Source of the DNA: an uncultured Muribaculaceae bacterium | GTDB taxonomy: Bacteria > Bacillota_I > Bacilli_A > RF39 > UBA660 | Direction: 5' to 3' | Assembly: GCA_964565085.1 (NCBI GenBank) | Contig: CAZMCS010000002.1 | Span: forward strand, 1 to 42,949 | DNA: 42,949 nucleotides | Shown here: positions 13,318 through 37,306 of the stretch, in pieces | How the letters are laid out: each line of letters starts with the position of its first letter | Position numbering within the stretch: position 1 is the stretch's first letter | The notes under the pieces: generated by a model | What the model was told of the DNA's origin: nothing | The model's input: only the letters and a program-made list of their open reading frames with translations | Database searches by the model: none | Made by a program: the position numbers and the translations under genes

Positions 13318-13319
13318 AA

Positions 13320-14111: not shown

Positions 14112-14382
14112 ACAGGAAAATAGCCAAACCAGTATTAATTGTGGTGAAGATAAATCAACAAAGTGGTCCGTAAGATTGTTCTTGGAAAACAGAGTAACAT
14201 TATATATGGTAGTTGGTTTACATAATTTAAAATCTATGATACAAGAAGTAAGGGCTACCAACAACAATAAGCCGTTAAGACCACTGTATCCATGGGTAGT
14301 TAGTTATTCAGAAAAAAGAGTTATTGACAAATTTGGATACGGAATTAGAATATCAAAAATTGAACTAAAACCACTAAACTAA
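14089..14382 (+). CDS. hypothetical protein
   Basis: It fills the gap between neighbouring genes. GAGGAAA lies upstream of the ATG. No motif recognised. Confidence 0.35.
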   Translation: MHSISIYKQENSQTSINCGEDKSTKWSVRLFLENRVTLYMVVGLHNLKSMIQEVRATNNNKPLRPLYPWVVSYSEKRVIDKFGYGIRISKIELKPLN

Positions 14383-14398
14383 GACGGAGGAATATGTA

Positions 14399-15772
14399 GT
14401 GTTGAATCACATGGTAGAATTAGATGTTCCGTGGGTTGCTGAAGTGATAAGTGAAAGATTTGATGGAGCTATGGAATTGATGACAGAAAATTCTATAATC
14501 TATGGTGGTGCAGTTAGAGATGCACTGGCTGGATTACCGTTGTTAGGTGATTTAGACATACTAGTAACAGATTCTGATTCAGAGTGTCTAAAACAAGCAT
14601 TCAATAATTCATCAAAATGGATTTCAACTGACTCCACACTTCCAATTACTATGTCTGGAAAAAAGAAACCATATCAATCATTGTTATCAGACATAGAATC
14701 ATTTCAACCAGTAGGGGTAGATATGCATTATAAAAATGCGTATGAACAACCGGTTATATCAAAAGTTAATACATTCCAAACCATTGGTGGTCTACAAGTA
14801 CAACTAGTTACTTTTCGCACTAATGAAGACCATGCTCTACCAATGTCCAGTATTACCAGATGCGCTTTGTACCCAGCAACATTTGTTGATCTAAAGTGTT
14901 GCAGTTTAGTAATGTTGAGTAATGGGAAAGTGTTTGAAACGGTAAAAGGTTCTTATCAAGATTGTATAGATAGAGTTCTCAGAACACACATAATAAACAA
15001 GAATCTAAATCTGGATATATTTACAAAAAGAGTAATAAAACTGGAAAAAAATGGTTGGAAATCTAAAATAAATATGCGATCTGTAGTTCGTACAGTTAAT
15101 AAGCTTAAAGCAGCTGAAAACAAGAAAACAAAACCAAAATGCAAAAAAACGCCTTCAGAACTAATAACCGTTGAAGAATGTTACGGTAAAGATTCTAGAT
15201 TTGCTTTCACAAGATTACGCATACCAAGGAACAGCATGACGGCATTTGTACCTAGAAATCCATATTTAGTCGAACAAGTCACTACGCTTGTCAATAACAT
15301 AGCAGAAAAAATAAAAAGAGAAATGCTATCAAGCATAAAAATAACTAGTAGTGAACAAGAAATAGTAATAACTATACAACCCAAAAGCTGTGCGACTACT
15401 ATGCTGGCTAACCTTTACGCTGCTGCTAGTATAACTAAAAATACAGTCAATGTTAAGCCTAATAAGCGTAAACCAGTAGTTCCAACAATTCTTAAAAAAA
15501 CCGACACCACTGTACCTAGTTATCACAAATGGATAAAAAATGCTTATATAAAGTATACACATGATTATCCCGAAGGCTTTTCAAATTACACACATGACTG
15601 CCACGAATACGTTAATGACAGGATAAATATAGATGATACAAATACTGAAATAAAATATGGCACAGCAACTGATATACTAGAAGCTAAAGACAGTTTCAAT
15701 GCTTATGAGTTTGTGCGACTTATGAATGCTGATCTAACAAACCATAAACATGTATCCAACAAGCAAGAGTAA
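14399..15772 (+). CDS. divergent Pol-beta nucleotidyltransferase with a CCA-adding/poly(A)-polymerase-type head
   Basis: IYGGAVRDALAGLPLLGDLDILV is the class II tRNA-nucleotidyltransferase head motif (GG.VRD...D.D). The rest of the protein is unrecognisable. GTG start after GACGGAGG. Confidence 0.55.
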   Translation: MLNHMVELDVPWVAEVISERFDGAMELMTENSIIYGGAVRDALAGLPLLGDLDILVTDSDSECLKQAFNNSSKWISTDSTLPITMSGKKKPYQSLLSDIESFQPVGVDMHYKNAYEQPVISKVNTFQTIGGLQVQLVTFRTNEDHALPMSSITRCALYPATFVDLKCCSLVMLSNGKVFETVKGSYQDCIDRVLRTHIINKNLNLDIFTKRVIKLEKNGWKSKINMRSVVRTVNKLKAAENKKTKPKCKKTPSELITVEECYGKDSRFAFTRLRIPRNSMTAFVPRNPYLVEQVTTLVNNIAEKIKREMLSSIKITSSEQEIVITIQPKSCATTMLANLYAAASITKNTVNVKPNKRKPVVPTILKKTDTTVPSYHKWIKNAYIKYTHDYPEGFSNYTHDCHEYVNDRINIDDTNTEIKYGTATDILEAKDSFNAYEFVRLMNADLTNHKHVSNKQE

Positions 15773-15784
15773 TTGAGTTAGTTA

Positions 15785-16237
15785 ATGAAAAATAAAAAAG
15801 ATATACATGAATATAAAAATTACGATCGTAATACCTCTGATCTAGTAAACATATTCGTCTACGGAACATTGAAAGTAGGCGGATATTATGCTGGTTATTT
15901 TGACCAGGTGAGGTTGTGTAGTGTACCGTGTACTATTAAAGGAGCTCTATATCGAATAACTGGTGGATGGTTCCCTGGGCTAATTCTAGATGAAACAAGA
16001 ACAGTACACGGAGAACTACATGTATACAAAAATGCGAAAAAAGTAATTGCATTAATGGATACAATCGAAGGAGTTTCAAGTGGATTATTTAGAAAAGAAA
16101 CCGTTAATGTAAAAGTTGAAGATAATAAAAATAAAGAAGCTATTGTATATGTATTTAATCATATAATTACTGAAAACAATGCCGTAATTATAGAAACCGG
16201 TACATGGCCGATAGACGAAAAGGAGAAACTATTATGA
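15785..16237 (+). CDS. gamma-glutamyl cyclotransferase (AIG2/GGACT-like)
   Basis: IFVYGTLKVGG, G.LY..., FPGLI, VHGELHVY and IEG follow the GGCT-fold pattern. Confidence 0.7.
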   Translation: MKNKKDIHEYKNYDRNTSDLVNIFVYGTLKVGGYYAGYFDQVRLCSVPCTIKGALYRITGGWFPGLILDETRTVHGELHVYKNAKKVIALMDTIEGVSSGLFRKETVNVKVEDNKNKEAIVYVFNHIITENNAVIIETGTWPIDEKEKLL

Positions 16238-16566
16238 GAATACTGGCTATAAAAAGATCTGGACAAATGGCTAATTACGAAGTAGGAGCACACGCAGAAC
16301 AGAATAATAACGTAGTATCAGCAATAAATTTTTATGAGACAGGTTGTGCTGGGCATAAAGTTTGGCATGGACCGTGTTTTGTAATATCATTCGTAAACAA
16401 CTCATCCAAAGTTGTCATTCCTGCAACCGCAGAAAATATTCTCGAAGTTACATATGATAACAGTGGTACGGTAATCACCAAGACACATGGGGTTAGTCTT
16501 AAAAAACAAACAGAACCAGTAAACGCGGAAACATACAAGTCTGACGTAGTAGAAATGGAGGCTTAG
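16235..16566 (+). CDS. hypothetical small protein ending in -EMEA
   Basis: The ATG at 16235 follows AAGGAGAA. The C-terminus VVEMEA mirrors the EWEMEA end of the 12409-13317 product. Confidence 0.5.
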
Positions 16567-16570
16567 TATT

Positions 16571-17284
16571 ATGAAAGCGTTAGTTCCATTTGGTTTTGAC
16601 TACGCAAGAGCTATAGAAGGATTAGTCACCCCAACTAGTGATATAGACGATTTTTATGAAAACACAAATGAGTATAGTCTTGTATTATTTACGGGTGGGC
16701 CTGATATCTCTCCGCATCTTTATGGCGAAACTAGCCCGAAGGGTTATTGTTTTGTAGATGATGCCAGGGATAGTGCCGAAATATCCATCTTCAAACATGC
16801 TGTAAAAAATAACGTAAAGATGGCTGGTATATGCCGTGGTTTACAACTACTGACAGTGATGTGTTGCGGTAGATTACTTCATCATTTAGATGGACATTCA
16901 AGAATGACTACCCATTCGTTTAAATGTTCAAACACCAATAACAATATTCAAGTTAACTCACTGCATCATCAAATGTGTATACCTCCTAAAGATGGATATA
17001 TCGTAGGTTGGTGCGGAACTAGAGAATCAGACAGGTATATCGGTGATGGTGACAAAGAAGTTGTATGGACTGGTCCGGAAGTGGAAGCGCTAGCCATGCC
17101 ATACAAGCAGTGTGTTGGTGTTCAATATCATCCAGAAATGATGAGTAAAACTACAGCAGGATATAAATGGTTTTACTTTTTTATACATGACTTTTTGTTC
17201 ACCTCTAGAAAATCTTTTATGTCTATTTATGTTAAAGGAAACAAGTACAATGTTCTCACCAAATCAAGCAGCACTCAGTCTTAA
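16571..17284 (+). CDS. class I glutamine amidotransferase / peptidase C26 paralogue
   Basis: TGGPDISP, AGICRGLQLL, LHHQ, and VQYHPE. Confidence 0.75.
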   Translation: MKALVPFGFDYARAIEGLVTPTSDIDDFYENTNEYSLVLFTGGPDISPHLYGETSPKGYCFVDDARDSAEISIFKHAVKNNVKMAGICRGLQLLTVMCCGRLLHHLDGHSRMTTHSFKCSNTNNNIQVNSLHHQMCIPPKDGYIVGWCGTRESDRYIGDGDKEVVWTGPEVEALAMPYKQCVGVQYHPEMMSKTTAGYKWFYFFIHDFLFTSRKSFMSIYVKGNKYNVLTKSSSTQS

Positions 17285-27101: not shown

Positions 27102-28319
27102 ATGGATATAAATATCAGAATATCTAATGTTATGGATAGATGCAAAATATCTAAGATAGGTTTGTCTGAGAACAGGCTTATCAGACTACCGGCAGAAATG
27201 AGAACTTTATACGAGATAACACCTGGACAACAGTTAACACTTACTACTAAAACTGGATCACTGATCTCTTTATTAGTCACAGGGGCACATAAAGAAGATG
27301 TAGAAAAAGATGACCTAAGTGCATACGTAAATAGTGAAATCGCTGAATTATTAGGAATAGAGGATAATAACTCGATAGAAGTTTCATTATATGATGGCCT
27401 AACACTAGGATGTGACCCTGAATTTTTTATAGTTGATAAATATAAAGGCTTTATTCATTCGGCATCTATGTTCTTTCAAAAATGGGGAGATGTAGGATAC
27501 GATGGTATCATGGCAGAAGTAAGACCACTACCCAGTGTAAGCGCATATGTGGTAACCTCAAATATATTTTCACTTATCAAAAAAGCAAGAAGAATAATAG
27601 ACAATCATCCTAGTGGAATAGGCAAAAATATAATAATGGTAGCCTCGTCATCATTCAACAACATACAAGCTGGTTTTCATTTACATTATGGAATGCCTTT
27701 ACATATGCTTGGTTATGCTCCTGAAGGTAGTATTAAAAACAAGTTGATAAATCAAATAATAAAAGTTATGGATTTCTACATAGGAATCCCAAGCATTATT
27801 ATTGAAGGTACATGTGATAGCTCCAGACGCACAAATTTATTTTCGGACTATGGCAAACCTGGAGGATACAGACTTGACACTAGAACGCTAGAATATAGGG
27901 TGCCTGGGGGTGCTTTACTGAAACACCCAGCCCTAACTAGTGGCATCTTGGCACTCGGTGCTGTAGTAGTAGAAGACATAGTAAGCAGGATAAAAGAATA
28001 TTCTGATCAATTTATTGATCTATCAGTAATTACCACACCTGAAGATATTAGGGCGTTATACAATAGCTTACCACAGACTAAAGAAATATTTAAAGCAATA
28101 TGTAGTAAAGATACTGGTATAGCTGAAGAAATGATGTCAATTATAATACCTGACATCGAAAAGATGGTAGGTTATAAAAGAAGAGCACATGTGATAAAAA
28201 ACTTTTTTTCCATAATAAAACACAAAGAGGAATTTAACAATAACATAGAAAACAACTGGGAGGGATTTGGTAATGAGACTCAATCTGGACAAATGGACAT
28301 TTATACAGCACAGTTCTAA
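27102..28319 (+). CDS. COOH-NH2 ligase type 2 (DPEF family), paralogue A2, with a ~95-aa N-terminal extension
   Basis: LGCDPEFFIVD, DGIMAEVRPLPS, GFHLHYG and LEYRVPG are collinear with A1 and A3. Confidence 0.55.
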   Translation: MDINIRISNVMDRCKISKIGLSENRLIRLPAEMRTLYEITPGQQLTLTTKTGSLISLLVTGAHKEDVEKDDLSAYVNSEIAELLGIEDNNSIEVSLYDGLTLGCDPEFFIVDKYKGFIHSASMFFQKWGDVGYDGIMAEVRPLPSVSAYVVTSNIFSLIKKARRIIDNHPSGIGKNIIMVASSSFNNIQAGFHLHYGMPLHMLGYAPEGSIKNKLINQIIKVMDFYIGIPSIIIEGTCDSSRRTNLFSDYGKPGGYRLDTRTLEYRVPGGALLKHPALTSGILALGAVVVEDIVSRIKEYSDQFIDLSVITTPEDIRALYNSLPQTKEIFKAICSKDTGIAEEMMSIIIPDIEKMVGYKRRAHVIKNFFSIIKHKEEFNNNIENNWEGFGNETQSGQMDIYTAQF

Positions 28320-29955
28320 GCCTACTATAGATACCAAAGAAGTCTTATATTGGAAAGGTAGCTTGAAAAAACTATTAAAAGTAGGTATGGAATTCGAATA
28401 TAATCTACCGGATTCCAATGGTACTTGTAAGGGAAATAGCAATGTGTGTCCTTGTGTAAAAATGGCTACTAACGATTGTTGGAAAGAGTGTGCTAATAAA
28501 GCAAAGTGTGACGCTGAGAAAAACTACGACAAATGTTTGGCTAGAGCAGAAAAATGCAAACCAGAAGACTGCAAGAATTGTCCTAACTATGTATATGAAT
28601 GTCCTGGTGTATTTTGTACAAATTTTGTTACCAAATGTTTTAATTGCAGTGATTTTGTAACAGACTGTGCAAATTGCAAAAACAGATATGATCCAAGTAA
28701 AAACCCAGAATATATAAGAAATAAGATAACTGCTGAACTGACTCCTAACAACTGCTATGGTTACATAAATGAAAGTGGAGTACACAGTATAACTACGGAC
28801 GGTAGCCTACTAGGTAAACAAGGAGCTGAAGTAATAACTATAGGAAGACGTGTTGACTACTGGGAATTTTATAAAATGTCAAAAAATATAATCCAAAATG
28901 TTACTACCAAAGGCGCTTATCTAAATGAAAGATGTAGTCTACACATGCATCTTCTTGCAAGTTATTACGGTAAATTATTTCCTAGTAGTAGCTCAGCTAA
29001 ACATGGTATACCTGAGAATATAAGTGAGTTGGAAAGACCAATGCCGGAAATAATACTTGCTAATTTTCATCAGCTAGTAAGACGCTATCAAAACGCGTTA
29101 ACGTGGATGGGCATGAGCTTGGACATCCCAAACAAAATGACAAGGTGGGAAAAATTCAGAGTATCAGTCCTACAGATATCAGCAATAATGAATGATATGA
29201 GATCTGTACAAGAACAAGTATCTAGCCATTCTGGTAATAACAAGTATGGATTTGTAAATTACAAATACTGTCAATTTAATCGTTCTGGAGACATTACAAG
29301 ATTCCATATAGAAATGAGAAATCTAGATGGTATGAACAGCCCAAGTGCAGTAGCGGCCTTCGCATGTCTTTATTATGCGCTTGTGTTGAAAGCTGTAGAG
29401 ATCTCAAGGCACGGAATAGTAGAGGTAGGAGATTCTGAATGGTTTTCATATGCTTTAAAAGTAAAAGATGCTATTTTAAACAATGTAAAAGGATACCAGG
29501 AAGGAGACAGATTTTCAGATACCAGTAAACTGTATCAGTATAACAAGTATCTAATTGCTGAATCTCTAGATTTAGTAAGGCAACTAAAACATATTCTTAT
29601 AAAAATAGGCCCGGCATATCAAGTTCTGGAACAACTTGCTGAAAGTCCAATAGCTATTAGAAGGTGTAATGGTGACACTTGGGAAAAAATAGAGACTGAT
29701 TTATCGGTTCCGACTACCAATGAAACCGAACTCGAAGCAACTATAAACGAGTTCATAGATCTAAGATTAATAGACTCTTGTAATAGTCTTAGTGAATGGG
29801 TTACAGCAGTAGGAAAAGTAATCAGACAAAACACCTATGCTGAAGTTGAGGAGACTGACAATCTAGAAGAAAGAGTATTAAACTACGTAATTGACAAAAA
29901 AGAAAATGGAGAGCTGATCTGGTCGAACACGCTAGGCACAGCGGTGTTACTATAA
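28273..29955 (+). CDS. GS-like 'putative amidoligase' with a cysteine-rich insert
   Basis: The KVGMEFEY strand and SLHMHL block are typical of the GS/GCS-like amidoligase family. An insert carries 16 Cys by my count (28426-28676). The ATG at 28273 is preferred over the track's TTG at 28267. Confidence 0.55.
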   Translation: MRLNLDKWTFIQHSSKPTIDTKEVLYWKGSLKKLLKVGMEFEYNLPDSNGTCKGNSNVCPCVKMATNDCWKECANKAKCDAEKNYDKCLARAEKCKPEDCKNCPNYVYECPGVFCTNFVTKCFNCSDFVTDCANCKNRYDPSKNPEYIRNKITAELTPNNCYGYINESGVHSITTDGSLLGKQGAEVITIGRRVDYWEFYKMSKNIIQNVTTKGAYLNERCSLHMHLLASYYGKLFPSSSSAKHGIPENISELERPMPEIILANFHQLVRRYQNALTWMGMSLDIPNKMTRWEKFRVSVLQISAIMNDMRSVQEQVSSHSGNNKYGFVNYKYCQFNRSGDITRFHIEMRNLDGMNSPSAVAAFACLYYALVLKAVEISRHGIVEVGDSEWFSYALKVKDAILNNVKGYQEGDRFSDTSKLYQYNKYLIAESLDLVRQLKHILIKIGPAYQVLEQLAESPIAIRRCNGDTWEKIETDLSVPTTNETELEATINEFIDLRLIDSCNSLSEWVTAVGKVIRQNTYAEVEETDNLEERVLNYVIDKKENGELIWSNTLGTAVLL

Positions 29956-29967
29956 TAGGAGTTAAAT

Positions 29968-30804
29968 ATGTGTGCTATATTCGGAATAGGATTTTTAAAT
30001 AATTACAGTGTAAATAATGCGTCTACTATTAGACGCGTGCTCGACGAGTTATTCGATCAAGCTGAGATTTGTGGCCGTGACGCATCTGGAATTGCATTGG
30101 TGACGAACAAAGAGATTAATGTTATTAAAAATAACGTAACTGGAAGAAAATTTGTAACTGAAAACAATTACATTGAAGCAGTAACCAACTATTTAAAAAC
30201 TGGACATAATAATGCACATAAGATGTCTATTTTAGGTCACTGTAGAGCGCAAACAAAAGGAACTAGTGAAGACAGAAGCAATAATCATCCAATAGTAACC
30301 GGCAAAACTGTAGGTATTCATAATGGGATAATAACAAACGATGAGGAACTATGGGATATTCTAAAAGCTACTAAAAAACCAGCAGAAAGATGTGGTAGAG
30401 TAGATAGTGAAATCATATTTAAATTAATAGATAACGAATTCAACAGTAATAGGGACACTACGATGAGTAGAGCCATACAACTAGCTGTAAATGCGTTATC
30501 AGGTAGTTTTGCGTGTGCTGCGGTAAATTCAAAAGTACCATGGATGTTATATTTGTTTAGAAAAGAGCTTCCAATAGATATAGTACACTACAACCAGGCA
30601 GGACTATTAATGTTCGCCACTAGATCTTCTTTCATACAAAATGCAGTATCTAAAGCCGGTGGTTTAGGCAAACCAAGTCATATAGTTTTAAATAGCAATT
30701 CTGGCATATGTATAAATTTATTAAACAATAAATTGCACACATTTAGTATCAACAACTGTTTACAGCTACAACCACCAAAAATAAGCATGGGAGTAACACA
30801 ATGA
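29968..30804 (+). CDS. stand-alone class II (Ntn) glutamine amidotransferase domain protein
   Basis: MCAIFGI places the nucleophile Cys right after Met. GHCRAQTKG, NNHPI, IHNGIITN and VDSE blocks. No synthetase domain follows. Confidence 0.8.
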   Translation: MCAIFGIGFLNNYSVNNASTIRRVLDELFDQAEICGRDASGIALVTNKEINVIKNNVTGRKFVTENNYIEAVTNYLKTGHNNAHKMSILGHCRAQTKGTSEDRSNNHPIVTGKTVGIHNGIITNDEELWDILKATKKPAERCGRVDSEIIFKLIDNEFNSNRDTTMSRAIQLAVNALSGSFACAAVNSKVPWMLYLFRKELPIDIVHYNQAGLLMFATRSSFIQNAVSKAGGLGKPSHIVLNSNSGICINLLNNKLHTFSINNCLQLQPPKISMGVTQ

Positions 30805-31688
30805 GTCTTGATATAACATCAGTATTTACTAATTTATCACATCTTGGAAGATTAAAACACAAAGAAGAGTATTCTACTATAATACTAACCCAGACTGTTG
30901 ATCAATTAATAGTAGGATCACGACTTGTTATAAAAAATAAAATAGATAACCATGATAATCTGACTAAGACATGTATTACTTCTCTAGATCACATTTTTAC
31001 TTCAGATTCCATAAATCAAAATAGTAATAAACACACTATAGAAGTACAAGGAGTTCGTCCTGTTGCAATTGACGACAATGAAGATGCTGTGTTCTATTTA
31101 ACAAGTAAGCAATTTAAAATGGCTGGAAGATCATTTCTAAATAATCACAAACTAAAAGAAGTAGACGAGTTTAATACATCCAAACTACAAGAAATAAAAG
31201 AGTATACTGATCGTTATAGTTCCATAACGTTTCGTGTACATAACAATAAACAAGCAGCCAAATGTTTGTATAAATTAAACGACTTTACGAAAAGTTTTAA
31301 GTATAGTAGGCTAGCTAATCAGTATGTATCTGATTATGTGCTGGATGAGACTATCCCACTATTTACATTCATAAATCTATCGGAATGTATTCCTATATTC
31401 AATCCGAGACGACTAGATGGAATAGTGATATATCTCCAGGCAATCTCAAAGTTAACCACCACACCAATAACTGTGGCAAAATTATTAATAACCACAAATA
31501 ACTATCTGGATAATGTTTTTGTAATAGATGGCCAAACAATAAATGTAACTGAGAATATACATAAAGGGATATGGGATAGTTTCGCAAAGATGATATTACA
31601 AAAGGGACGTGTTGACAAAGCAAAAGAATCTATTAACTTAGAATCAATAGATAACGCATGTGTTTGTGCTTCTACATCAACACATTAA
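30801..31688 (+). CDS. hypothetical protein embedded between the two Ntn amidotransferases
   Basis: ATGA overlap with the upstream stop. 295 aa with no motif recognised. Confidence 0.55.
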   Translation: MSLDITSVFTNLSHLGRLKHKEEYSTIILTQTVDQLIVGSRLVIKNKIDNHDNLTKTCITSLDHIFTSDSINQNSNKHTIEVQGVRPVAIDDNEDAVFYLTSKQFKMAGRSFLNNHKLKEVDEFNTSKLQEIKEYTDRYSSITFRVHNNKQAAKCLYKLNDFTKSFKYSRLANQYVSDYVLDETIPLFTFINLSECIPIFNPRRLDGIVIYLQAISKLTTTPITVAKLLITTNNYLDNVFVIDGQTINVTENIHKGIWDSFAKMILQKGRVDKAKESINLESIDNACVCASTSTH

Positions 31689-31748
31689 GTAAAACAAGTA
31701 GTATCTTACCCATAATTTACTAATAATAAAACAATTTAGGAAGGTTAT

Positions 31749-33650
31749 ATGTGCGGAATAGTCGGTATTATAAATTTTGGAGATGTTGACAAAGAAGAAG
31801 AAAGATCTAAAAGAGAAACATCAATATTTCTTGCTACAGAGCTAATGCAACAAACTCAAGCAAGAGGCAAAGATGCTACCGGAGTAGTTAATTTGTATGC
31901 TAATGGTGATTGGCACGGTCTAAAAGAAGGCATTGACTGCATTGAATTTCTCTCAAAATGGGGCGAAACTGAAAACGAGTTTGGAGGTTTTTTAAAAATA
32001 TGGAGAAAGAAAAAAACAGCCCACAAAATATTTTTAGGACACTGTAGAAAAAGTTCCGTTGGTAGTACGTGGCATAATGCTAATAATCATCCTATACATA
32101 TAGGTGATGTGGTTGGAGTACACAACGGTACTCTTGACAACCACAACCAGATATTTGATAAGCTAAAATGTAAACGTGATGGTGATGTAGATAGTGAGGC
32201 TATAATAAGATTATTACACGTTTATTCAAAAAATGGAACTGTACCATTCACCCCAGATATGGTAAAAGAAGTAGCTATGAGACTTCAAGGGTCCTATGCT
32301 GTATTGGCGTTTAGTGGAAATAATCCATTTCAACTTGCCTGTTTCAGAGATGGGAGACCAATAGAATTCGCCTTAATAAAACCCACTAAACAAATACTAG
32401 TGGCATCGGAAAAAATATTTCTCCAATCTGCAGTGTTTAGAATGAGTAAAGAGGTAAAACTATACAACAACAGGATTTACCCGTATCTCACAGAAGATGA
32501 TGTAGAATTCAAAACTATGCGTGACGATAGTTTGGTAATATGGGATCTTACCAGAGACATTGATAACAACACTAAAATAGAAGATCTCTATAACACGAAA
32601 GATGTACCACGTGCTAATAAATTGTGGAAAGCACCAATACAGTCGAATTATAGTAGTAGTTATCATGGTAATTATAACCATAGTTATAGTACTAATAACT
32701 ATAATTCTCATGCAAGTGCTGCAACTAATTCTATGAGTAATAAAAATTGCAGCACAAACGCTAAAAACTATACATCCGTTTCAAAGAAAAGAGAAAAAAA
32801 CTCAACAAATAAAGAGAACAGAAATGGAATGATATGGAACCATAAATTTAAAAAATTCGAACCTAATATTACGGAGATATCTGCTGCTGAAAAAATAGGC
32901 AATGTGGAAATACGTATAGACGAAGATTGGATAAAACACATAGGTGCCAAGTACGATGATAGATTACACACCGTCGAGTTAATTGAAGGTGATGAAAGTA
33001 TACAAGATGTTACCGAAAATATCGTTGAAGCAAGAATAATAAACGAGCCTAATATAAATGATGATGTTACGATTATCGATCCAGCAGATATAGATATTTT
33101 GCACACAGAAGGTGAGTGTACAACTGAAATAACTAGAGTAGATCATGTTGTTCTAGAAGAAGCCAATACAGCATTAGAAAAACTCGAAAAATATGAAAGT
33201 ATCGAAGATGTTATGATAGATATGGACATAGATAGTGAAGAAGCTATGAATCAGCTCCCTATACATGCATTAGCAAATAGAATGAAAAAGGTAATGTATA
33301 AACTTGGGTTTTATGATGGCTGGCTTAAATGTTCTTCACGTAAAAAAGGCAACGGTGTTGAAAATAATACTGACAAGAAACACATGTCTAAGTTATCTAG
33401 AGCCGAGAAAAACATCAGGATTCTAAAAACTATGACCACAATCATGTTCAAAATATTCGATGGAAAAGAGTCGAATGTATATACTGACCAGAGTTATGGT
33501 TATGTTTTGAATAAAGCACTTATGGAATCTTTAAAAGACGGAGGCAGACTTAATACCGATGATATAGACAAAGTGTATTCTCAAGGTGATATGAGCAAAC
33601 ACCTGATACTGAGAAAAATAAGAGCCACAGTAAAAGAAAAAGAGAAGTAA
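31749..33650 (+). CDS. class II (Ntn) glutamine amidotransferase domain fused to a long uncharacterised C-terminal region
   Basis: MCGIVGII, GHCRKSSVG, NNHPIH, VHNGTLDN and VDSE. An N/S/Y-rich low-complexity linker follows, then ~300 aa of unknown sequence. Confidence 0.8.
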   Translation: MCGIVGIINFGDVDKEEERSKRETSIFLATELMQQTQARGKDATGVVNLYANGDWHGLKEGIDCIEFLSKWGETENEFGGFLKIWRKKKTAHKIFLGHCRKSSVGSTWHNANNHPIHIGDVVGVHNGTLDNHNQIFDKLKCKRDGDVDSEAIIRLLHVYSKNGTVPFTPDMVKEVAMRLQGSYAVLAFSGNNPFQLACFRDGRPIEFALIKPTKQILVASEKIFLQSAVFRMSKEVKLYNNRIYPYLTEDDVEFKTMRDDSLVIWDLTRDIDNNTKIEDLYNTKDVPRANKLWKAPIQSNYSSSYHGNYNHSYSTNNYNSHASAATNSMSNKNCSTNAKNYTSVSKKREKNSTNKENRNGMIWNHKFKKFEPNITEISAAEKIGNVEIRIDEDWIKHIGAKYDDRLHTVELIEGDESIQDVTENIVEARIINEPNINDDVTIIDPADIDILHTEGECTTEITRVDHVVLEEANTALEKLEKYESIEDVMIDMDIDSEEAMNQLPIHALANRMKKVMYKLGFYDGWLKCSSRKKGNGVENNTDKKHMSKLSRAEKNIRILKTMTTIMFKIFDGKESNVYTDQSYGYVLNKALMESLKDGGRLNTDDIDKVYSQGDMSKHLILRKIRATVKEKEK

Positions 33651-33670
33651 ACCATATATGGAGATCTGTG

Positions 33671-34993
33671 ATGCAGAAAAAGTTAGTGTTGATGATTTCG
33701 GACAAGATGGATCTGAACAAGAAGTCGGATAGAAACGAGCACTCTTTATTAAGAATGTCAGCTATGACGCGAGACAATCTGCAATTTAATAAGACATTTG
33801 TAGAACTAAAACCAACTTCCAATGCTATAAATTCACTAAAACTAAATATTTTTAGGGCATTCTCGTCTGATATAAATAAACTTAAAGAAAAAGTAGCAAG
33901 TGGTGAATTAACACTAGATGAGATAAACAGAGTGGGTTTCGTAACCAGAGATACTTATAAGAGAATCCTTGGCAACAGGCGCCAAAAAAACATATGGATT
34001 TCGGATAACAGTGACCCAACACAACAAATAGAGAATTTAGTAATAGGTTCTGATCCAGAATTTTTATTGTTTAACGAGGTAGGGGAAGTAGTAAGAGCCA
34101 ACAGTCTAATGATTAAACAAGGCAAACTTGGTTGTGACGGTGCAATGGCAGAACTGAGGCCAGACCCGGCTAAATCACCAGAAGAAGTAGTGAATAACAT
34201 AATGCAAATACTTTCGGATGAGTCACTAACTACTAGAATAGCGACTACTAAATGGATTGCAGAGTGTTACTATAAGGATAGTGTCCGAGATTACCCTGTA
34301 GGTGGACATATTCATATTGGTAATCCACAACAAGTTGCCGATATACCTATGATGTACAGATGTGATTTTTTCAATTCGATAAACAAGATAATGGATGAAC
34401 TATTATCTGTGCCAATGATTAAATTAGATGGGTTGGAGAAAGGATCATCAAGGCGAACAAAATGCAACACGGTACTAAACGGATCGAACGGTTACGGGTG
34501 GTATGGGGAATGGCGCGAATGTAATGGCCACTTTGAACATAGAACTCTAAGTGGTTTATGGCTTACTCATCCAACACTAGCTGTAGCTGTGCTAGGAACA
34601 GCCGAAGCTATAGCTAAAGAGGTATTTAAATTAGGTGCAGCTTCTAACTATGATATGAATTACTTATTCCCACAAAAATTTCATGCAGTTAGCGTATGGA
34701 GTTCTGATTTTGATAGTTGGGCGGAAATACCATTGATAGTAGATATGAAATGCACTACTTCATCTAAACAGGTTAAAGCCTTATTACATGATTCTGATCC
34801 AAGTAATATAACTGATAGTTACTTAAAAGAGTGGTATAACAACATAAAAACGTTGTCTACTTATAGTAGGTATGATAAATACATAGATGTTTTGTACTCC
34901 ATACTTTGTCATTCAGATAAAGAGCTAAGTGATTATAGTAGAGATATCAAAGATAACTGGCTTGGGGGTAAAGAATACCTAACAACTATTTAA
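33671..34993 (+). CDS. COOH-NH2 ligase type 2 (DPEF family), paralogue A3, with a ~125-aa N-terminal extension
   Basis: IGSDPEFLLF, DGAMAELRPDPA, GGHIHIG and FEHRTLSG are collinear with A1 and A2. Confidence 0.55.
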   Translation: MQKKLVLMISDKMDLNKKSDRNEHSLLRMSAMTRDNLQFNKTFVELKPTSNAINSLKLNIFRAFSSDINKLKEKVASGELTLDEINRVGFVTRDTYKRILGNRRQKNIWISDNSDPTQQIENLVIGSDPEFLLFNEVGEVVRANSLMIKQGKLGCDGAMAELRPDPAKSPEEVVNNIMQILSDESLTTRIATTKWIAECYYKDSVRDYPVGGHIHIGNPQQVADIPMMYRCDFFNSINKIMDELLSVPMIKLDGLEKGSSRRTKCNTVLNGSNGYGWYGEWRECNGHFEHRTLSGLWLTHPTLAVAVLGTAEAIAKEVFKLGAASNYDMNYLFPQKFHAVSVWSSDFDSWAEIPLIVDMKCTTSSKQVKALLHDSDPSNITDSYLKEWYNNIKTLSTYSRYDKYIDVLYSILCHSDKELSDYSRDIKDNWLGGKEYLTTI

Positions 34994-35054
34994 ATATAGT
35001 AGTTTTAAAATAATATAATAAAATTTTAATCAAAAAAATGATAGGAGAATTAAT

Positions 35055-36146
35055 ATGGCAAATAATGATGTTTACATTTATTACAGTGGAGCAACAGATA
35101 AAACAGGCAAAGCACTTTGTGAAGCATTGGATATAGACGGTGGTGCAGTCGCCCCTAAAACAAATAAAAAAGTTGTAATAGGATGGGGTACAAAAACAAC
35201 AAAAGAAGTAAACATGGGTAATAGCATTACCATTAACCACCCAAACTCTATTCGAGCAAATAGGGATAAATATTCGGCGCTGACTAAACTTAAAGAAAGA
35301 AACGTAAATGTAGCCAATTTTATGACGGCAGAAGAAGCCAACAATATGCTCAAGTCAAAAAAAAACATGAGCATGCCTATTATCGGACGTACTAAGTATC
35401 ACCAGGGAGGAAAAGGGTTTTGGACATGCTTAGATGAAGGAATGGTTCAAGAAGCTATACATGAGGGTGCTTATTATTTTCAAGAACGAATACCAATAAA
35501 GGATGAATACCGACTCCATATATTTGATGGTAATCTGATATATGCTCAGAAAAAAGTAAAACGCGATGACATGGAAAAAGCATTTATTGATCATCAGATG
35601 GGCAAAATTGAAAACGCCGCCGATAGAGGAGGTAAAAAATTAGACAAGGACACCATCAACTTCATACTTGAAAGGCAGGCTAAAGAACAGGCAGAACACG
35701 CTGATATGTTGATCAGATCTAATGAAAGAGGATGGAAGTTTATATCCATTAAAACATCTAGTATCAAAGAAGAACTACTGCAGCAGGCAGTTAAAGCGGT
35801 AAGTGCGGTTGGTCTTGATTTTGGAGCAGTCGATTGTTGTACAGACTTGAATGGTAAATCATGGATAATTGAGATAAACTCAGGACCCGGTTTGGATGGA
35901 AAATCATTCAAAGCATATGTAGAAACATTGGATCAAGCTATACGCAACAGGTGTTATCCTAGCAAAACAAAAACCAATGAAAAAACTACATCGGAATCGT
36001 CAACCAGTACTACGTCAGCAAAACCCGAAAGTAACAAATCGATTTTGAAACAGAAACTATCTCTCTTACAGGAAATGATTGACGTGGCTGACACCGATGA
36101 ACTCGTAGCGCTAAACAAAGTAGCTGCAAAAATGTTTGGTGGTTGA
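35055..36146 (+). CDS. ATP-grasp ligase (RimK-like)
   Basis: EYRLHIFDGNLIYA and GLDFGAVDC...SWIIEINSGPGL are ATP-grasp core blocks. S/T-rich C-terminal tail. Confidence 0.75.
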   Translation: MANNDVYIYYSGATDKTGKALCEALDIDGGAVAPKTNKKVVIGWGTKTTKEVNMGNSITINHPNSIRANRDKYSALTKLKERNVNVANFMTAEEANNMLKSKKNMSMPIIGRTKYHQGGKGFWTCLDEGMVQEAIHEGAYYFQERIPIKDEYRLHIFDGNLIYAQKKVKRDDMEKAFIDHQMGKIENAADRGGKKLDKDTINFILERQAKEQAEHADMLIRSNERGWKFISIKTSSIKEELLQQAVKAVSAVGLDFGAVDCCTDLNGKSWIIEINSGPGLDGKSFKAYVETLDQAIRNRCYPSKTKTNEKTTSESSTSTTSAKPESNKSILKQKLSLLQEMIDVADTDELVALNKVAAKMFGG

Positions 36147-36149
36147 TAA

Positions 36150-36572
36150 ATGGCTAAGTTTTGTGTATCACTGTCAGATTACTATATAGCTGATCAGATA
36201 GCAAATCTTATTAATACATATAACCGATTATATAAGCTGCATACTGCCGAAAGCATAATGTCAAGTAACACTACTTATTTAGTCGAAATACTTGGTACTG
36301 AGGTAGTAGGTTGTGTGGGAATAACAACTGAGAGCTATGAAATAAGTAGAATACATCACATCTCTGTAAAACCAGAGGTTAGAAAACGTGGTATAGCTAA
36401 GAAACTAACGTGCTTAGCTATAACACAATGTCAAACCACTAATGTATATATGACCATAAGGGCCGACAACTACGCGAGTCTGGCATTAGCTATTGAATTG
36501 GAATTTATATTTGTTAACAGCTATTGGAACAGAGACCACTATGTAATCACAGCTGCAAGGAGACTGAAGTAA
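36150..36572 (+). CDS. GNAT-family N-acyltransferase
   Basis: HISVKPEVRKRGIAKKL is acetyl-CoA-binding motif A (R-x-x-G-x-A). 140 aa. Confidence 0.7.
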   Translation: MAKFCVSLSDYYIADQIANLINTYNRLYKLHTAESIMSSNTTYLVEILGTEVVGCVGITTESYEISRIHHISVKPEVRKRGIAKKLTCLAITQCQTTNVYMTIRADNYASLALAIELEFIFVNSYWNRDHYVITAARRLK

Positions 36573-37306
36573 TGGGTGTTGTGAATCAACAAGTAGAACA
36601 GGAAAACAAAAGCACTAATATCAAGTACATGTCTGTAGAACTAACAAGAAAATCCAAAATTATCACCAACACAAGCATAGAAGATATGGAATATGGATTA
36701 TTTAAAGGACTAGATTTTAAAACAAAAGCTGTTTACCAAGATCTAGATGATACAAGAGTAATCATATATGATAATGCCAAGAAAACAACCAAATATTTAT
36801 CGCTTAAAGACTATAATATAGTATCCTTTGAGATATTTAACGGTTCCTCTAGAGATATAACATTTTTTTGGAGCACAGAGGCTGACCAGAAAGCAGCTCT
36901 TTCGAGATTAAATGACGCATTAGTAGCCATGCAAATTGTCGAAAGGGTTACATTGGATCAGAACATCATAGATGTCTCAAGTTATACGGATATAGCTCCT
37001 GGTCTAAGTATTGATAATAGAGACTATAACACAACACATAGTACTAGTAAAAGCAATTATAACACTACTACTACCACTACAAACGGTAACAAAAAGGAAG
37101 CCTCTGCGATGAAACGAAGTAGTAAGGTTCCTACAAAAGAATTTTTACACAAACTTAAAGCTAGTATTGATCAAATACGTACAGGAGATTATGAAGAAAT
37201 AGAATTTCCAATATTTGACAATAACAATGACGATAAAATGGACGAAGATGACAAATTACAGTTAGAGTATGGTCAAGAAAATATGTGGTCATACATGGGT
37301 TACTAG
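36572..37306 (+). CDS. hypothetical protein
   Basis: The ATG at 36572 overlaps the GNAT stop (TAATG) and follows AAGGAGA. The track's start at 36524 is unlikely. Confidence 0.5.
   Translation: MGVVNQQVEQENKSTNIKYMSVELTRKSKIITNTSIEDMEYGLFKGLDFKTKAVYQDLDDTRVIIYDNAKKTTKYLSLKDYNIVSFEIFNGSSRDITFFWSTEADQKAALSRLNDALVAMQIVERVTLDQNIIDVSSYTDIAPGLSIDNRDYNTTHSTSKSNYNTTTTTTNGNKKEASAMKRSSKVPTKEFLHKLKASIDQIRTGDYEEIEFPIFDNNNDDKMDEDDKLQLEYGQENMWSYMGY

What the first reader, a model, noticed from the sequence alone, without database searches (positions are those of the whole stretch)
27102..36572. Block B of an expanded amidoligase / amidotransferase / ATP-grasp / GNAT cluster with unknown product
Eight consecutive genes make up this block. 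They are a DPEF-type COOH-NH2 ligase (27102), a GS-like amidoligase with a Cys-rich insert (28273), a stand-alone Ntn amidotransferase (29968) and an unknown protein (30801). These are followed by an Ntn amidotransferase fused to ~400 aa of unknown sequence (31749), a second DPEF-type ligase (33671), an ATP-grasp ligase (35055) and a GNAT (36150). Gene junctions are tight or overlapping, as in an operon. Comparative genomics (Iyer, Abhiman, Burroughs and Aravind 2009, Mol Biosyst) predicted phage systems combining these folds (phiEco32-like) for peptide or amide-linked metabolite synthesis or macromolecule tagging. To my knowledge no product or target has been demonstrated. This version is unusually large: four amide-bond ligases of three folds plus two Ntn domains. 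It could assemble a multi-step peptide-like or polyamine-like compound, or a modification of protein, cell wall or nucleic acid.
Basis: partly seen in the sequence, partly recalled or inferred. Interest (0 to 1): 0.8.

Follow-up and report, generated by a model that had tools for sequence, protein, structure and literature searches.

The report
Expanded phage amide-ligase gene cassette
An uncultivated giant phage carries a conserved run of genes for four amide-bond-forming enzymes, two glutamine-splitting enzymes and an acetyltransferase; it is an enlarged version of a gene cassette known from smaller phages since 2009, and nobody has yet shown what that cassette makes or modifies.

Summary
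All eight ORFs are at the stated coordinates, and profile or structure searches place seven of them in the proposed folds. These are two PF14395 COOH-NH2 ligases, one GS-superfamily ligase with a 16-Cys insert (no Pfam match; nearest viral structures are phage 'Amidoligase' proteins), two Ntn amidotransferases, a RimK-like ATP-grasp and a GNAT. The eighth ORF (295 aa) stays unknown and evolves fast.

The block is collinear in 11 distinct loci from related metagenomic phage contigs of 29-313 kb (36-56% aa identity where measured). The component families are found almost only on phage contigs.

It matches the phiEco32/LUZ24 cassette in parts and in gene order, but it is expanded. New features:
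- Both PF14395 ligases carry an N-terminal CDC48/VAT-type double-psi barrel.
- The stand-alone Ntn protein has become a retained pseudoenzyme in one lineage.
- A ~150-kb phage clade uses Amidoligase_2 paralogs in place of the PF14395 ligases.

No product or target has been demonstrated in the literature I could search. My best inference, at moderate confidence, is ATP-dependent amide ligation or amidation on a protein or peptide substrate. Metabolite synthesis, cell-wall editing and DNA hypermodification are not excluded. I rate it a new variant of a known, uncharacterised kind.

The parts
27102..28319 (+). Lig1: N-terminal CDC48/VAT-N-type double-psi beta-barrel (about residues 1-100) fused to a PF14395 COOH-NH2 (GCS2/YbdK-like) ligase.
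   Evidence: PF14395 at 82 bits, residues 102-381, plus a weak AbrB/MazE match at residues 27-50. The N-domain profile matches DPBB structures at E 6.9e-9. Catalytic D-P-E, E, H-x-H, R and E-x-R are invariant across 17 sequences. Orthologs were found in all 10 distinct loci examined in detail.
28273..29955 (+). GS-superfamily carboxylate-amine ligase. It is a divergent relative of phage Amidoligase_2, with an ~85-residue insert carrying 16 invariant Cys (about residues 52-135, nt ~28426-28677) and a helical C-terminal domain. Its start overlaps the Lig1 stop by 47 nt.
   Evidence: No Pfam, PHROG or NCBIfam match. The AF2 model has pLDDT 78. Foldseek matches GS, PafA, YbdK and GCL at probability ~1, and BFVD top hits are phage Amidoligase proteins. 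It shares the motif DGSL..G.E...RCS.H.H with Bas86 Amidoligase_2. There are 16 invariant Cys. The family has 237 clusters among 1.84e9 representatives.
29968..30804 (+). Ntn1: stand-alone class-II (Ntn) glutamine amidotransferase / gamma-glutamyl amidohydrolase domain.
   Evidence: GATase_6 at E 3.8e-11. Sub-threshold matches to GlmS, PurF and EgtC models. It starts MC.., and the HCR, HNG and VDSE motifs are present. The L007 ortholog has lost all four motifs but is retained.
30801..31688 (+). Unknown 295-aa protein. It evolves fast and is the only dispensable member of the block.
   Evidence: No family match. The only close homolog is 98% identical. Positional orthologs are 17-29% identical by alignment or BLAST. 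It is absent in L010, and phmmer did not detect it in L019 or L024, where Ntn1 and Ntn2long are adjacent.
31749..33650 (+). Ntn2long: Ntn amidotransferase (residues 1 to ~290), a hypervariable low-complexity linker, and a conserved alpha-helical C-terminal region (about residues 455-633).
   Evidence: GATase_6 at E 7e-11. PHROG 4736 at E 2.6e-22, the same family name as the long GATase of the Bas86 cassette. A 10-sequence alignment shows Cys2, R100, N126-G127 and D148 invariant, the linker unalignable and the C-terminal region conserved.
33671..34993 (+). Lig2: paralog of Lig1, with a DPBB N-domain (about residues 1-122) fused to a PF14395 ligase.
   Evidence: PF14395 at 94 bits. The AF2 model has pLDDT 92, and its catalytic domain matches YbdK, GS and GCL. 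The Lig1 N-domain HMM hits Lig2 at 1e-9. DPBB match. 433 homologs, all carrying PF14395.
35055..36146 (+). ATP-grasp ligase of the RimK/LysX/MptN-like group, with a low-complexity tail and a conserved C-terminal helix.
   Evidence: PHROG 2599 at E 4e-36. rimK_fam at 41 bits, below the 143-bit cut-off. phmmer against the Bas86 and Clew-6 cassette ATP-grasps gives 6e-19 and 8.5e-14. The E-x-N and other core motifs are invariant in 9 orthologs.
36150..36572 (+). Small GNAT N-acetyltransferase, RimI-like. It always follows the ATP-grasp directly.
   Evidence: Acetyltransf_1 at E 2e-8. rimI at 37 bits, below cut-off. The R/Q-x-x-G-x-A/G motif, which I take from general knowledge to be the acetyl-CoA-binding motif, is conserved in 8 of 9 orthologs.
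36572..37306 (+). Conserved 244-aa ORF with an N-terminal beta-rich domain, a low-complexity linker, a conserved basic helix and an acidic tail. Whether it belongs to the system is uncertain.
   Evidence: Present between the GNAT and the RuvB-like gene in L005-L012 at 20-30% identity. Not detected by phmmer in L019 or L024. No family match.
12409..17284 (+). Upstream 'Block A', outside the finding. It holds the canonical phiEco32/LUZ24-type COOH-NH2 ligase (12409-13317), two Peptidase_C26 gamma-glutamyl hydrolase-like genes (13299-14111, 16571-17284) and a GGACT gene (15785-16237). It probably supplies the cassette parts that Block B lacks.
   Evidence: PHROG 3815 at E 1.3e-57. tblastn hits in 318 isolate phage records. 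Peptidase_C26 and GGACT matches.

Best explanation
**Shown.** Block B is a real module of eight to nine genes, conserved across related phages and found essentially only on phage contigs. It is an expanded derivative of the phiEco32/LUZ24-type phage amidoligase cassette. All seven recognisable enzymes keep their catalytic motifs, so the module most likely performs several ATP-dependent amide-bond formations, glutamine-dependent steps and an N-acetylation.

**Inferred (about 0.4).** The substrate is a macromolecule, most likely a protein or peptide, rather than a free metabolite.
- The two PF14395 ligases are held on the substrate by their CDC48/VAT-N-type double-psi barrels and activate carboxylates as acyl-phosphates.
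- The Ntn proteins act in one of two ways. They may deliver ammonia from glutamine to turn activated carboxylates into amides. Alternatively they may trim gamma-glutamyl groups, as EgtC does.
- The Cys-rich GS-like ligase forms a further (iso)peptide bond, in the manner of PafA.
- The RimK-like ATP-grasp adds one or more alpha-linked glutamates.
- The GNAT caps a free amine.
- The low-complexity linkers and terminal helices on Ntn2long, the ATP-grasp and the 244-aa protein suggest the enzymes are tethered in one assembly.

I could not identify the target.
For: **Folds and motifs.**

**Synteny.** The block is collinear in L005-L012, L019 and L024 at 36-56% identity in L005-L012, on contigs of 44-313 kb.

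**Distribution.** The GS-like family has only 237 clusters at 50% identity among 1.84e9 proteins. In 185,579 species genomes it gave three hits, all on MAG contigs assigned to unrelated taxa.

**Link to the known cassette.** Parts and gene order match the Bas86 and Clew-6 cassettes.

**For a macromolecular substrate.**
- The Lig1 and Lig2 N-domains match VAT/CDC48-N-derived DPBB structures at E 6.9e-9, and the natural VAT/CDC48 N-domains at E 0.006-0.04. The canonical cassette ligases lack this domain.
- PafA and Dop are among the top structural matches of the GS-like ligase.
- The best characterised relatives of the ATP-grasp and the GNAT are the protein modifiers RimK and RimI.
- An inactivated Ntn1 is retained in L007/L008, which suggests a structural role in a complex.

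**Recurring composition.** In the ~150-kb clade (L018) the short GS-like gene again sits with two Ntn GATases and two other GS-type ligases. There the two ligases are PF12224 rather than PF14395.
Against: - No substrate gene was identified. There is no small tag ORF, and no protein in the block has a conserved acidic or Gln/Glu C-terminus.
- DPBB domains also occur in enzymes, and the related AbrB fold binds DNA. The N-domain therefore does not prove a protein substrate.
- RimK-family and GNAT enzymes also act on small molecules. From general knowledge, examples are MptN, CofF and the NAAG synthetases.
- Foldseek TM-scores to PafA are low (0.27-0.30).
- Collinearity extends across the whole RNAP-to-CCA-enzyme region, so gene order alone does not prove functional coupling.
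- No experiment exists for any member of this cassette type.
Confidence: 0.4

Rival explanations
1. Small-molecule biosynthesis. The block would assemble a free N-acetylated, glutamate-containing and amidated peptide-like or gamma-glutamyl-amine metabolite. By analogy, the GNAT plus RimK-like ligase would make an N-acetyl-dipeptide as in NAAG synthesis, and a GCS2 ligase plus an Ntn hydrolase would install and remove gamma-glutamyl as EgtA and EgtC do.
For: - The PF14395 ligases belong to the GCS2/YbdK group.
- The Ntn domains give sub-threshold EgtC matches (E 2.6e-9 and 2.4e-4).
- The ATP-grasp also matches MptN and LysX, which act on small molecules or carrier proteins.
- The window holds two Peptidase_C26 genes and a GGACT gene, which from general knowledge act on gamma-glutamyl compounds.
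- The NAAG and ergothioneine analogies rest on established biochemistry, not on tests done here.
Against: - The DPBB substrate-binding-type domains on both ligases are not expected for a soluble metabolite pathway.
- Neither are the long disordered tethers or the retained inactive Ntn1.
- No transporter and no tailoring enzyme typical of natural-product clusters lies in the block.
Confidence: 0.25
2. Cell-wall editing, the standing literature hypothesis for the phiEco32-type cassette. The enzymes would add, amidate or remove amino acids on peptidoglycan stem peptides or their precursors, to block superinfection or tune lysis.
For: - Hypothesis stated in PMC5498523 and PMC10580990, both citing Iyer et al. 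2009.
- From general knowledge, stem peptides contain gamma-linked D-Glu and carboxylates that are amidated by ligase/GATase pairs such as MurT/GatD and AsnB-type enzymes.
- An SLT transglycosylase gene lies in the window at 8919-9620.
Against: - No Mur-ligase, Fem-type, D-amino-acid or lipid II-related domain is in the block.
- No signal peptide or membrane protein was noted, though I did not test for these formally.
- The module sits among replication and transcription genes.
- The hypothesis has never been tested experimentally.
Confidence: 0.15
3. Nucleic-acid hypermodification. The ligases and amidotransferases would extend or amidate an amino-acid-bearing base, for example a glycyl- or glutamyl-thymidine or carboxy-pyrimidine, in phage DNA or on tRNA.
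For: - Lee et al. [quoted passage not shown]
- The block lies between a helicase, an SSB and a RuvB-like gene, and short GS-like homologs sit next to DnaB and primase genes in L020.
- The Lig1/Lig2 N-domain also gives weak matches to AbrB-type DNA-binding models.
Against: - No 5-hmU kinase, aGPT-Pplase, dUMP hydroxymethylase, TET/JBP or DpdA-like gene was detected among the ORFs of this 43-kb window that were scanned.
- To my knowledge, the canonical cassette hosts phiEco32 and LUZ24 are not reported to have hypermodified DNA.
Confidence: 0.12
4. No common pathway. On this view the genes are independent auxiliary nitrogen or glutamine-metabolism genes that sit together only because the whole genome region is collinear in this clade.
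For: Collinearity extends far beyond the block. Promoter-like and terminator-like sites do not delimit an operon.
Against: - The same combination recurs in unrelated podoviruses in the same order.
- It also recurs in a ~150-kb phage clade with non-orthologous ligases.
- The Lig1/GS-like start-stop overlap is conserved.
- An inactive Ntn1 is retained.
Confidence: 0.05

Closest known systems
phiEco32 / LUZ24 / RIO-1-type phage amidoligase cassette (Iyer et al. 2009; called a 'peptidoglycan modification cassette' in PMC5498523)
   Same: - It has a PF14395 ligase, a GS-like amidoligase, a long Ntn GATase (PHROG 4736) and a homologous ATP-grasp (PHROG 2599).
- The order ligase, amidoligase, GATase, ATP-grasp is the same.
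- A GGCT/AIG2 gene is nearby, as in Block A here.
- It also lies among early, replication and transcription genes. Kuraviruses also encode a sigma factor and a CCA-adding enzyme.
- Its function is likewise unproven.
   Different: In Block B:
- The PF14395 ligase is duplicated, and both copies carry a DPBB N-domain.
- The amidoligase is a separate family without a Pfam model, with a 16-Cys insert.
- There is an extra stand-alone Ntn protein and a GNAT.
- No DNA or tblastn match was found in 50,697 isolate phage records for Lig2, the GS-like protein or the block DNA.
- The host genome is a jumbo phage of about 300 kb.
Pup ligase PafA and depupylase Dop (actinobacterial pupylation)
   Same: They have the GS/GCS-type carboxylate-amine ligase fold and are among the top Foldseek matches of the GS-like protein. 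From general knowledge, they ligate a glutamate gamma-carboxylate to a protein lysine, and the system includes a deamidation step.
   Different: There is no sequence-level similarity, no Pup-like tag gene, and no Mpa or proteasome. The adjacent AAA+ protein is RuvB-family. TM-scores are only 0.27-0.30.
EgtA/EgtC logic in ergothioneine biosynthesis (GCS2-type ligase plus stand-alone Ntn amidohydrolase)
   Same: A GCS2/YbdK-like ligase is paired with a stand-alone class-II 'GATase' domain. Both Ntn proteins match the EgtC model below threshold.
   Different: No EgtB or EgtD homologs are present. The scores are far below the equivalog cut-off (37 against 219 bits). This is an analogy of chemical logic only.
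RimK (ribosomal protein S6 poly-glutamate ligase) with RimI, and the NAT8L + RIMKLA/B N-acetyl-aspartyl-glutamate pathway
   Same: The best-scoring characterised families for the ATP-grasp are RimK, MptN and LysX, and for the GNAT it is RimI. The GNAT and the ATP-grasp are always adjacent.
   Different: Both score well below the family cut-offs (41 against 143 bits; 37 against 86 bits). The weak Ribosomal_S6 match in the GS-like C-terminus (E 0.014) is probably chance.
Ligase plus glutamine-amidotransferase amidation pairs (MurT/GatD, AsnB-type)
   Same: These systems also activate a carboxylate with ATP and couple it to glutamine-derived ammonia. This rests on general knowledge.
   Different: The ligase folds differ (Mur ligase or PP-loop rather than GS/GCS), and GatD is a class-I GATase. 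I made no direct homology test for these families here.

Membership tests
phiEco32/LUZ24-type phage amidoligase cassette | PF14395 'phage phiEco32-like COOH.NH2 ligase type 2' | tested here: met
   Lig1 scores 82 bits and Lig2 94 bits against a 25-bit cut-off. All 17 aligned members match.
phiEco32/LUZ24-type phage amidoligase cassette | GS-like Amidoligase_2 (PF12224) gene | tested here: inconclusive
   No PF12224 match at E <= 10, and only 1 of 10 short-form relatives matches, at E 0.019. However, the fold is GS/GCS, the top BFVD structural matches are phage Amidoligase proteins, and a core motif is shared with Bas86 gp77 (hhalign probability 57%).
phiEco32/LUZ24-type phage amidoligase cassette | Class-II (Ntn) glutamine amidotransferase, including a long form | tested here: met
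   GATase_6/7 matches. PHROG 4736 at E 2.6e-22 for the 633-aa protein. phmmer against the Clew-6 GATase gives 1.8e-7.
phiEco32/LUZ24-type phage amidoligase cassette | ATP-grasp ligase of PHROG 2599 | tested here: met
   E 4e-36. phmmer against the Bas86 and Clew-6 cassette ATP-grasps gives 6e-19 and 8.5e-14.
phiEco32/LUZ24-type phage amidoligase cassette | Gamma-glutamyl cyclotransferase (AIG2/GGCT) gene in the cassette | tested here: inconclusive
   Absent from Block B. A GGACT gene lies about 11 kb upstream at 15785-16237, in Block A.
phiEco32/LUZ24-type phage amidoligase cassette | Gene order ligase, amidoligase, GATase, ATP-grasp within an early/replication region | tested here: met
   Compare (Bas86; Clew-6).
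Pupylation-type protein tagging (PafA/Dop) | Small tag protein with a C-terminal GGQ/GGE, plus an Mpa AAA+ protein and a proteasome | tested here: not met
   Intergenic gaps in the block are at most 61 nt, leaving no room for a tag ORF. The neighbouring AAA+ protein is RuvB-family. No proteasome-type Ntn protein is present.
Pupylation-type protein tagging (PafA/Dop) | PafA/Dop-family ligase | tested here: inconclusive
   Foldseek probability is 0.99-1.0 but TM-scores are 0.27-0.30. There is no sequence match to any PDB chain.
RimK family alpha-L-glutamate ligase | Score above the family cut-off | tested here: not met
   TIGR00768 gives 41.3 bits against a 143.4-bit cut-off, and the PRK10446 S6-glutamate ligase model gives 21.9 against 331. 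The ATP-grasp core motifs are conserved.
Thymidine hypermodification gene clusters (5-HMUDK / aGPT-Pplase) | 5-hmU DNA kinase, aGPT-Pplase, dUMP hydroxymethylase or TET/JBP nearby | tested here: not met
   None was detected among the window ORFs scanned against Pfam or PHROGs. The remaining ~260 kb of the genome could not be examined.
CDC48/VAT-N-type double-psi beta-barrel (N-domains of Lig1 and Lig2) | Profile match to DPBB structures, and a duplicated beta-alpha-beta (psi-loop) pattern | tested here: met
   The A8 profile matches 7dvc at 6.9e-9 and 7dvf at 8.1e-9, and the natural CDC48/VAT N-domains 7dg7, 7dg9 and 1cz4 at 0.006-0.04. The AF2 model shows E26-29/H31-36/E43-47 and E88-91/H93-100/E107-110. 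The N-domain could not be submitted to Foldseek on its own.

The most novel reading that the evidence does not exclude
The block encodes a phage-specific protein-conjugation or protein-editing machine. Two carboxylate-amine ligases grip a protein substrate with CDC48-N-type barrels. With a Cys-rich PafA-like ligase, a RimK-like glutamate ligase, an acetyltransferase and two glutamine amidotransferases, they would build or amidate an (iso)peptide mark on a phage or host protein. This would be a previously unknown viral analogue of pupylation or polyglutamylation. It would be core to a clade of uncultivated ~300-kb phages and ancestral to, or derived from, the phiEco32 cassette.
Probability: 0.3. 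Interest if true: 0.8.

Novelty: new variant of a known kind. Interest (0 to 1): 0.55.

Why it matters
The phiEco32-type amidoligase cassette matched 318 isolate phage records here. These include phages of Pseudomonas and E. coli that are being studied for therapy. It has had no demonstrated product since it was predicted in 2009.

This expanded version adds constraints that any explanation must satisfy:
- Substrate-binding-type barrels are fused to the ligases.
- An inactive amidotransferase is retained in one lineage.
- The composition of three GS-type ligases plus two Ntn proteins recurs with non-orthologous parts in another clade.
- The module is kept in every related jumbo-phage locus examined.

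If the target is a protein, this would be a new kind of viral post-translational modification system. If it is DNA or the cell wall, it would be a new anti-defence or exclusion chemistry. In either case the comparison suggests experiments that can be done in the tractable relatives Bas86 and LUZ24.

Tried and rejected
- **Isolate-phage relatives of the block.** megablast of the block and tblastn of Lig2, the GS-like protein and the 1096-aa RNAP-like protein against 50,697 phage records gave no match.
- **Single-protein IMG/VR scans.** Scans with the ATP-grasp and with LigA found nothing. An exact look-up of the ATP-grasp product also found nothing.
- **Homolog search for the 295-aa unknown.** It returned only a 98%-identical copy, so no alignment or structure could be made.
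- **Pfam at E <= 10.** The GS-like protein, the 295-aa protein, the 244-aa protein and the Ntn2long C-terminal part gave nothing, apart from a weak Ribosomal_S6 match that I treat as chance.
- **Cassette accessory proteins.** HMMs of the DPBB N-domain, the Ntn2long C-terminal region, the 295-aa family and the 244-aa family found nothing in the Bas86 or Clew-6 cassette proteins.
- **Operon boundaries.** Promoter-like sites were at chance level, and no convincing + strand terminator lies inside the block.
- **Pupylation-like membership.** Rejected: no tag gene, no Mpa, no proteasome.
- **Thymidine-hypermodification context.** Not found in the window.
- **Cellular origin or host assignment.** Rejected: only three MAG contigs, assigned to unrelated taxa (Patescibacteria, Muribaculaceae, Woesearchaeota), carry the GS-like gene. 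These are probably mis-binned phage contigs.
- **Iyer et al. 2009.** PMC3268129 is not in the held library. Its content is cited from memory and from papers that quote it.

Full report
**1. Observation**

The window is a uniformly + strand, ~34% GC phage-like region. Independent gene calls on four public contigs that carry the identical 560-aa protein give the same genes.

Pfam confirms the following:
- PF14395 COOH-NH2 ligase in 27102-28319 (82 bits) and 33671-34993 (94 bits).
- Class-II (Ntn) GATase domains in 29968-30804 and in the first ~230 residues of 31749-33650.
- A GNAT in 36150-36572.

The ATP-grasp (35055-36146) is weak in Pfam. It matches PHROG 2599 at E 4e-36 and RimK, MptN and LysX models below threshold. 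Its core motifs, including the E-x-N motif, are invariant in nine orthologs.

The 560-aa protein (28273-29955) has no Pfam, PHROG, NCBIfam or PDB sequence match. An AlphaFold model built on 34 homologs has pLDDT 78.
- In the PDB it matches glutamine synthetases, PafA/Dop, YbdK and gamma-glutamylcysteine ligases at probability ~1, with TM-scores normalised to the query (TMq) of 0.22-0.35.
- Among viral models its best matches are almost all phage 'Amidoligase enzyme' proteins, from phage tf, Cronobacter phages, CW02 and crAss-like phages.
- A profile of the family aligns with the Kuravirus Amidoligase_2 protein only over the core motif DGSL..G.E...RCS.H.H.
- The Cys-rich insert is real. Sixteen cysteines within ~85 residues are invariant in 34 sequences. 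That region is modelled with low confidence.

The 295-aa ORF stays unknown.

**2. Corrections to the observation**

- PF14395 ligases and the GS-like protein share one superfamily fold. Both models match GS, YbdK and GCL. The four ligases therefore represent two folds in three families.
- The ~400 aa after the second Ntn domain is not an enzyme domain. It is a hypervariable low-complexity linker followed by a moderately conserved helical region.
- Junctions are tight (-47 to +61 nt), but the junctions to the flanking helicase, the 244-aa ORF, the RuvB-like gene and the sigma gene are equally tight.
- Promoter-like sites are at chance level, and no convincing + strand terminator lies inside the block.

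**3. Comparative genomics**

*Family sizes.* The GS-like protein has more than 560 relatives at 90% clustering. They are 53-62% identical over the full length, unnamed, and sit on contigs up to 330 kb. An exhaustive HMMER search of 1.84 billion representatives found only 237 clusters. They come in two forms: ~560 aa with the Cys insert and ~430 aa without it. Lig2 has 433 relatives, all carrying PF14395.

*Distribution.* None of the block has a DNA or tblastn match in 50,697 isolate phage genomes. In 185,579 species genomes only three MAG contigs carry the gene. They are assigned to Patescibacteria, Muribaculaceae and Woesearchaeota, which suggests mis-binned phage DNA.

*Synteny.* In ten distinct loci examined in detail, the order helicase, Lig1, GS-like, Ntn1, (unknown), Ntn2long, Lig2, ATP-grasp, GNAT, (244-aa ORF), RuvB-like, sigma is kept. 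These loci come from a 313-kb NCBI contig and IMG/VR contigs of 44-298 kb, with 36-56% amino-acid identity in L005-L012. A further MAG locus, L026, carries the GS-like gene but I did not examine its neighbours. The 295-aa gene is the only dispensable member. Its positional orthologs are 17-29% identical, it is absent in L010, and it was not detected in L019 or L024. The 244-aa ORF was found in L005-L012 but not detected in L019 or L024.

The whole region from the RNAP-like gene to the CCA-adding enzyme is collinear. Synteny by itself therefore does not prove functional coupling.

*Evidence for coupling beyond synteny.*
- The Lig1/GS-like start-stop overlap is conserved.
- In the lineage represented by L007/L008, the Ntn1 ortholog matches the family HMM at 1e-47 but has lost Cys1, the glutamine-binding Arg, the Asn-Gly pair and the Asp. 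The gene is nevertheless retained, as expected for a structural subunit.
- In a different ~150-kb phage clade (L016-L018), the short GS-like gene sits with two Ntn GATases. In L018 it also sits with two PF12224 Amidoligase_2 paralogs, and no PF14395 ligase was detected there. The composition of three GS-type ligases plus two Ntn proteins therefore recurs with non-orthologous parts.
- In L020-L022 the short form stands alone. In L020 it lies next to DnaB and primase genes.

**4. Relation to the known cassette**

The upstream ligase at 12409-13317 ('Block A') is the canonical phiEco32/LUZ24 type. It matches PHROG 3815 at 1.3e-57 and has tblastn hits in 318 isolate phage records. It is accompanied by two Peptidase_C26 genes and a GGACT gene.

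The annotated cassettes of Kuravirus Bas86 and of the LUZ24-like phage Clew-6 have the order COOH-NH2 ligase, small ORF, Amidoligase_2, long GATase, ATP-grasp, GGCT. Block B follows the same order. Its ATP-grasp is directly homologous to theirs (phmmer 6e-19 and 8.5e-14). Its long GATase matches the Clew-6 GATase directly (phmmer 1.8e-7) and shares PHROG 4736 with the Bas86 GATase.

Block B is therefore an expanded derivative of that cassette. It has a duplicated PF14395 ligase, an extra stand-alone Ntn protein, a GNAT, and a divergent Cys-rich amidoligase.

The most distinctive addition is an N-terminal domain of ~100-120 residues shared by Lig1 and Lig2. The HMM of the Lig1 N-domain hits Lig2 at 1e-9. 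The domain is absent from the canonical ligases.
- Its profile matches double-psi beta-barrel proteins reconstructed from VAT/CDC48 N-domains at E 6.9e-9, and the natural CDC48/VAT N-domains at E 0.006-0.04.
- The high-confidence Lig2 model (pLDDT 92) shows the duplicated beta-alpha-beta pattern.
- Weak AbrB/MazE matches fit the same cradle-loop barrel lineage.

**5. Literature**

Full-text searches found no experimental product or target for this cassette type.
- Published statements are hypotheses derived from Iyer et al. 2009: cell-wall modification to block superinfection, or secondary-metabolite synthesis (PMC10580990, PMC5498523). That paper is not held in the library.
- SU10 proteomics lists the cassette's ATP-grasp, GATase and GGCT-like proteins among early gene products (PMC4281155).
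- Lee et al. 2021 note amidoligase and amidotransferase genes beside thymidine-hypermodification genes in viromes (PMC8989533).
- The 2021 jumbo-phage survey does not discuss this module.

**6. Mechanism**

*Shown.* All recognisable enzymes keep their catalytic or cofactor-binding motifs. The module is conserved under purifying selection in a phage-only distribution.

*Inferred from established enzymology of these families.*
- GS/GCS-type ligases activate a carboxylate as an acyl-phosphate and couple it to an amine.
- Class-II Ntn GATases either release ammonia from glutamine for such an acceptor, or hydrolyse gamma-glutamyl amides as EgtC does.
- RimK-type ATP-grasps add alpha-linked glutamate to a terminal carboxylate.
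- Small GNATs N-acetylate an amine.

*My preferred reading (about 0.4).* The substrate is a protein or peptide. The reasons are:
- the CDC48-N-type barrels on both ligases;
- the PafA/Dop-like structural neighbours of the GS-like ligase;
- the protein-modifying nearest relatives of the ATP-grasp and the GNAT;
- the retained pseudo-Ntn;
- the disordered tethers and terminal helices, which suggest a multi-enzyme assembly.

*Against it.* No substrate or tag gene is evident, DPBB domains are functionally diverse, and RimK-like and GNAT enzymes also act on small molecules.

*Rivals.* Free metabolite synthesis with a gamma-glutamyl or N-acetyl-peptide logic (0.25). Peptidoglycan editing (0.15). Extension of an amino-acid-bearing nucleobase (0.12); no base-activation genes were detected among the ORFs of this 43-kb window that were scanned. 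Unrelated auxiliary genes (0.05).

**7. Verdict**

This is a new, expanded variant of a known but functionally uncharacterised kind of phage gene cassette.

Interest is moderate, at 0.55. The new domain architecture and the comparative constraints are useful, and the underlying question has been open since 2009. However, this phage clade is uncultivated, and computation alone does not reveal the product.

Noticed in passing
window 42283-42496 (+) and 42541 to the window end: A full-length HEARO RNA (Rfam RF02033, 123.5 bits) lies just after a tRNA-Tyr gene. It is followed by an ORF that runs off the window end. The ORF's N-terminus has IscB-like PLMP and RuvC-I motifs (MKIYVISKNGKPLMPT...LGVDTGSSHVGSA). 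This looks like an OMEGA/IscB element inside a jumbo-phage genome.
   Followed up: partly
window 20413-23703 (+): A 1096-aa protein has weak matches to both Rpb2 domain 6 and Rpb1 domain 2, so it looks like a fused beta/beta'-type RNA polymerase. It is conserved at 44-52% identity in all related loci, but has no tblastn match in 50,697 isolate phage genomes. A sigma-70 region 2 protein lies at 38307-39080.
   Followed up: partly
L007:9501-10292 (and the equivalent position in L008): The ortholog of the stand-alone Ntn amidotransferase matches the family HMM at 1e-47 but has lost the catalytic Cys1 and the Arg, Asn-Gly and Asp glutamine-binding residues. It is a retained pseudoenzyme.
   Followed up: yes
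L016-L018 (IMG/VR contigs of ~146-158 kb); L018:2255-3154 and 3381-4280: A different phage clade has the short (~430 aa, no Cys insert) GS-like gene with two Ntn GATases of 370-417 aa and a RuvB-like gene nearby. In L018, two PF12224 Amidoligase_2 paralogs also sit there in place of PF14395 ligases. The RuvB-like gene stays in the neighbourhood even though gene order differs between L016 and L017/L018.
   Followed up: partly
window 4-645 (+): A NAPRTase-family (Nampt-like) gene fragment lies at the window start (E 2e-64). It may belong to a phage NAD-salvage pathway.
   Followed up: no
window 2864-3835, 4872-5429, 6421-7122, 9815-10345, 10338-11510, 39837-41363: There is a cluster of RNA-repair and translation-related genes: an RlaP-like nucleotidyltransferase, two metallophosphoesterases, a peptide deformylase, an Rnl1-type RNA ligase and a CCA-adding enzyme with an HD domain.
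   Followed up: no
window 28426-28677 (residues ~52-135 of the GS-like protein): Sixteen invariant cysteines occur with the spacing C-x6-C-x-C-x7-C-x3-C-x5-C-x8-C-x6-C-x4-C-x2-C-x6-C-x4-C-x6-C-x2-C-x6-C-x2-C. The region is modelled with low confidence. It could form four Zn(Cys)4 sites or Fe-S clusters. One BFVD structural neighbour is annotated as a LIM-domain protein.
   Followed up: partly
L026, L027, L028 (GTDB genome contigs): Contigs carrying the GS-like gene are binned into MAGs labelled Patescibacteria, Muribaculaceae and Woesearchaeota. These are probably phage contigs mis-binned into cellular genomes.
   Followed up: no
window 36572-37306 (+): A conserved 244-aa ORF has an architecture resembling SSB proteins: a beta-rich N-domain, a low-complexity linker, a conserved basic helix and an acidic tail. 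Three orthologs end in ..FCC or ..YCC. Its function is unknown, and its link to the ligase block is uncertain.
   Followed up: partly
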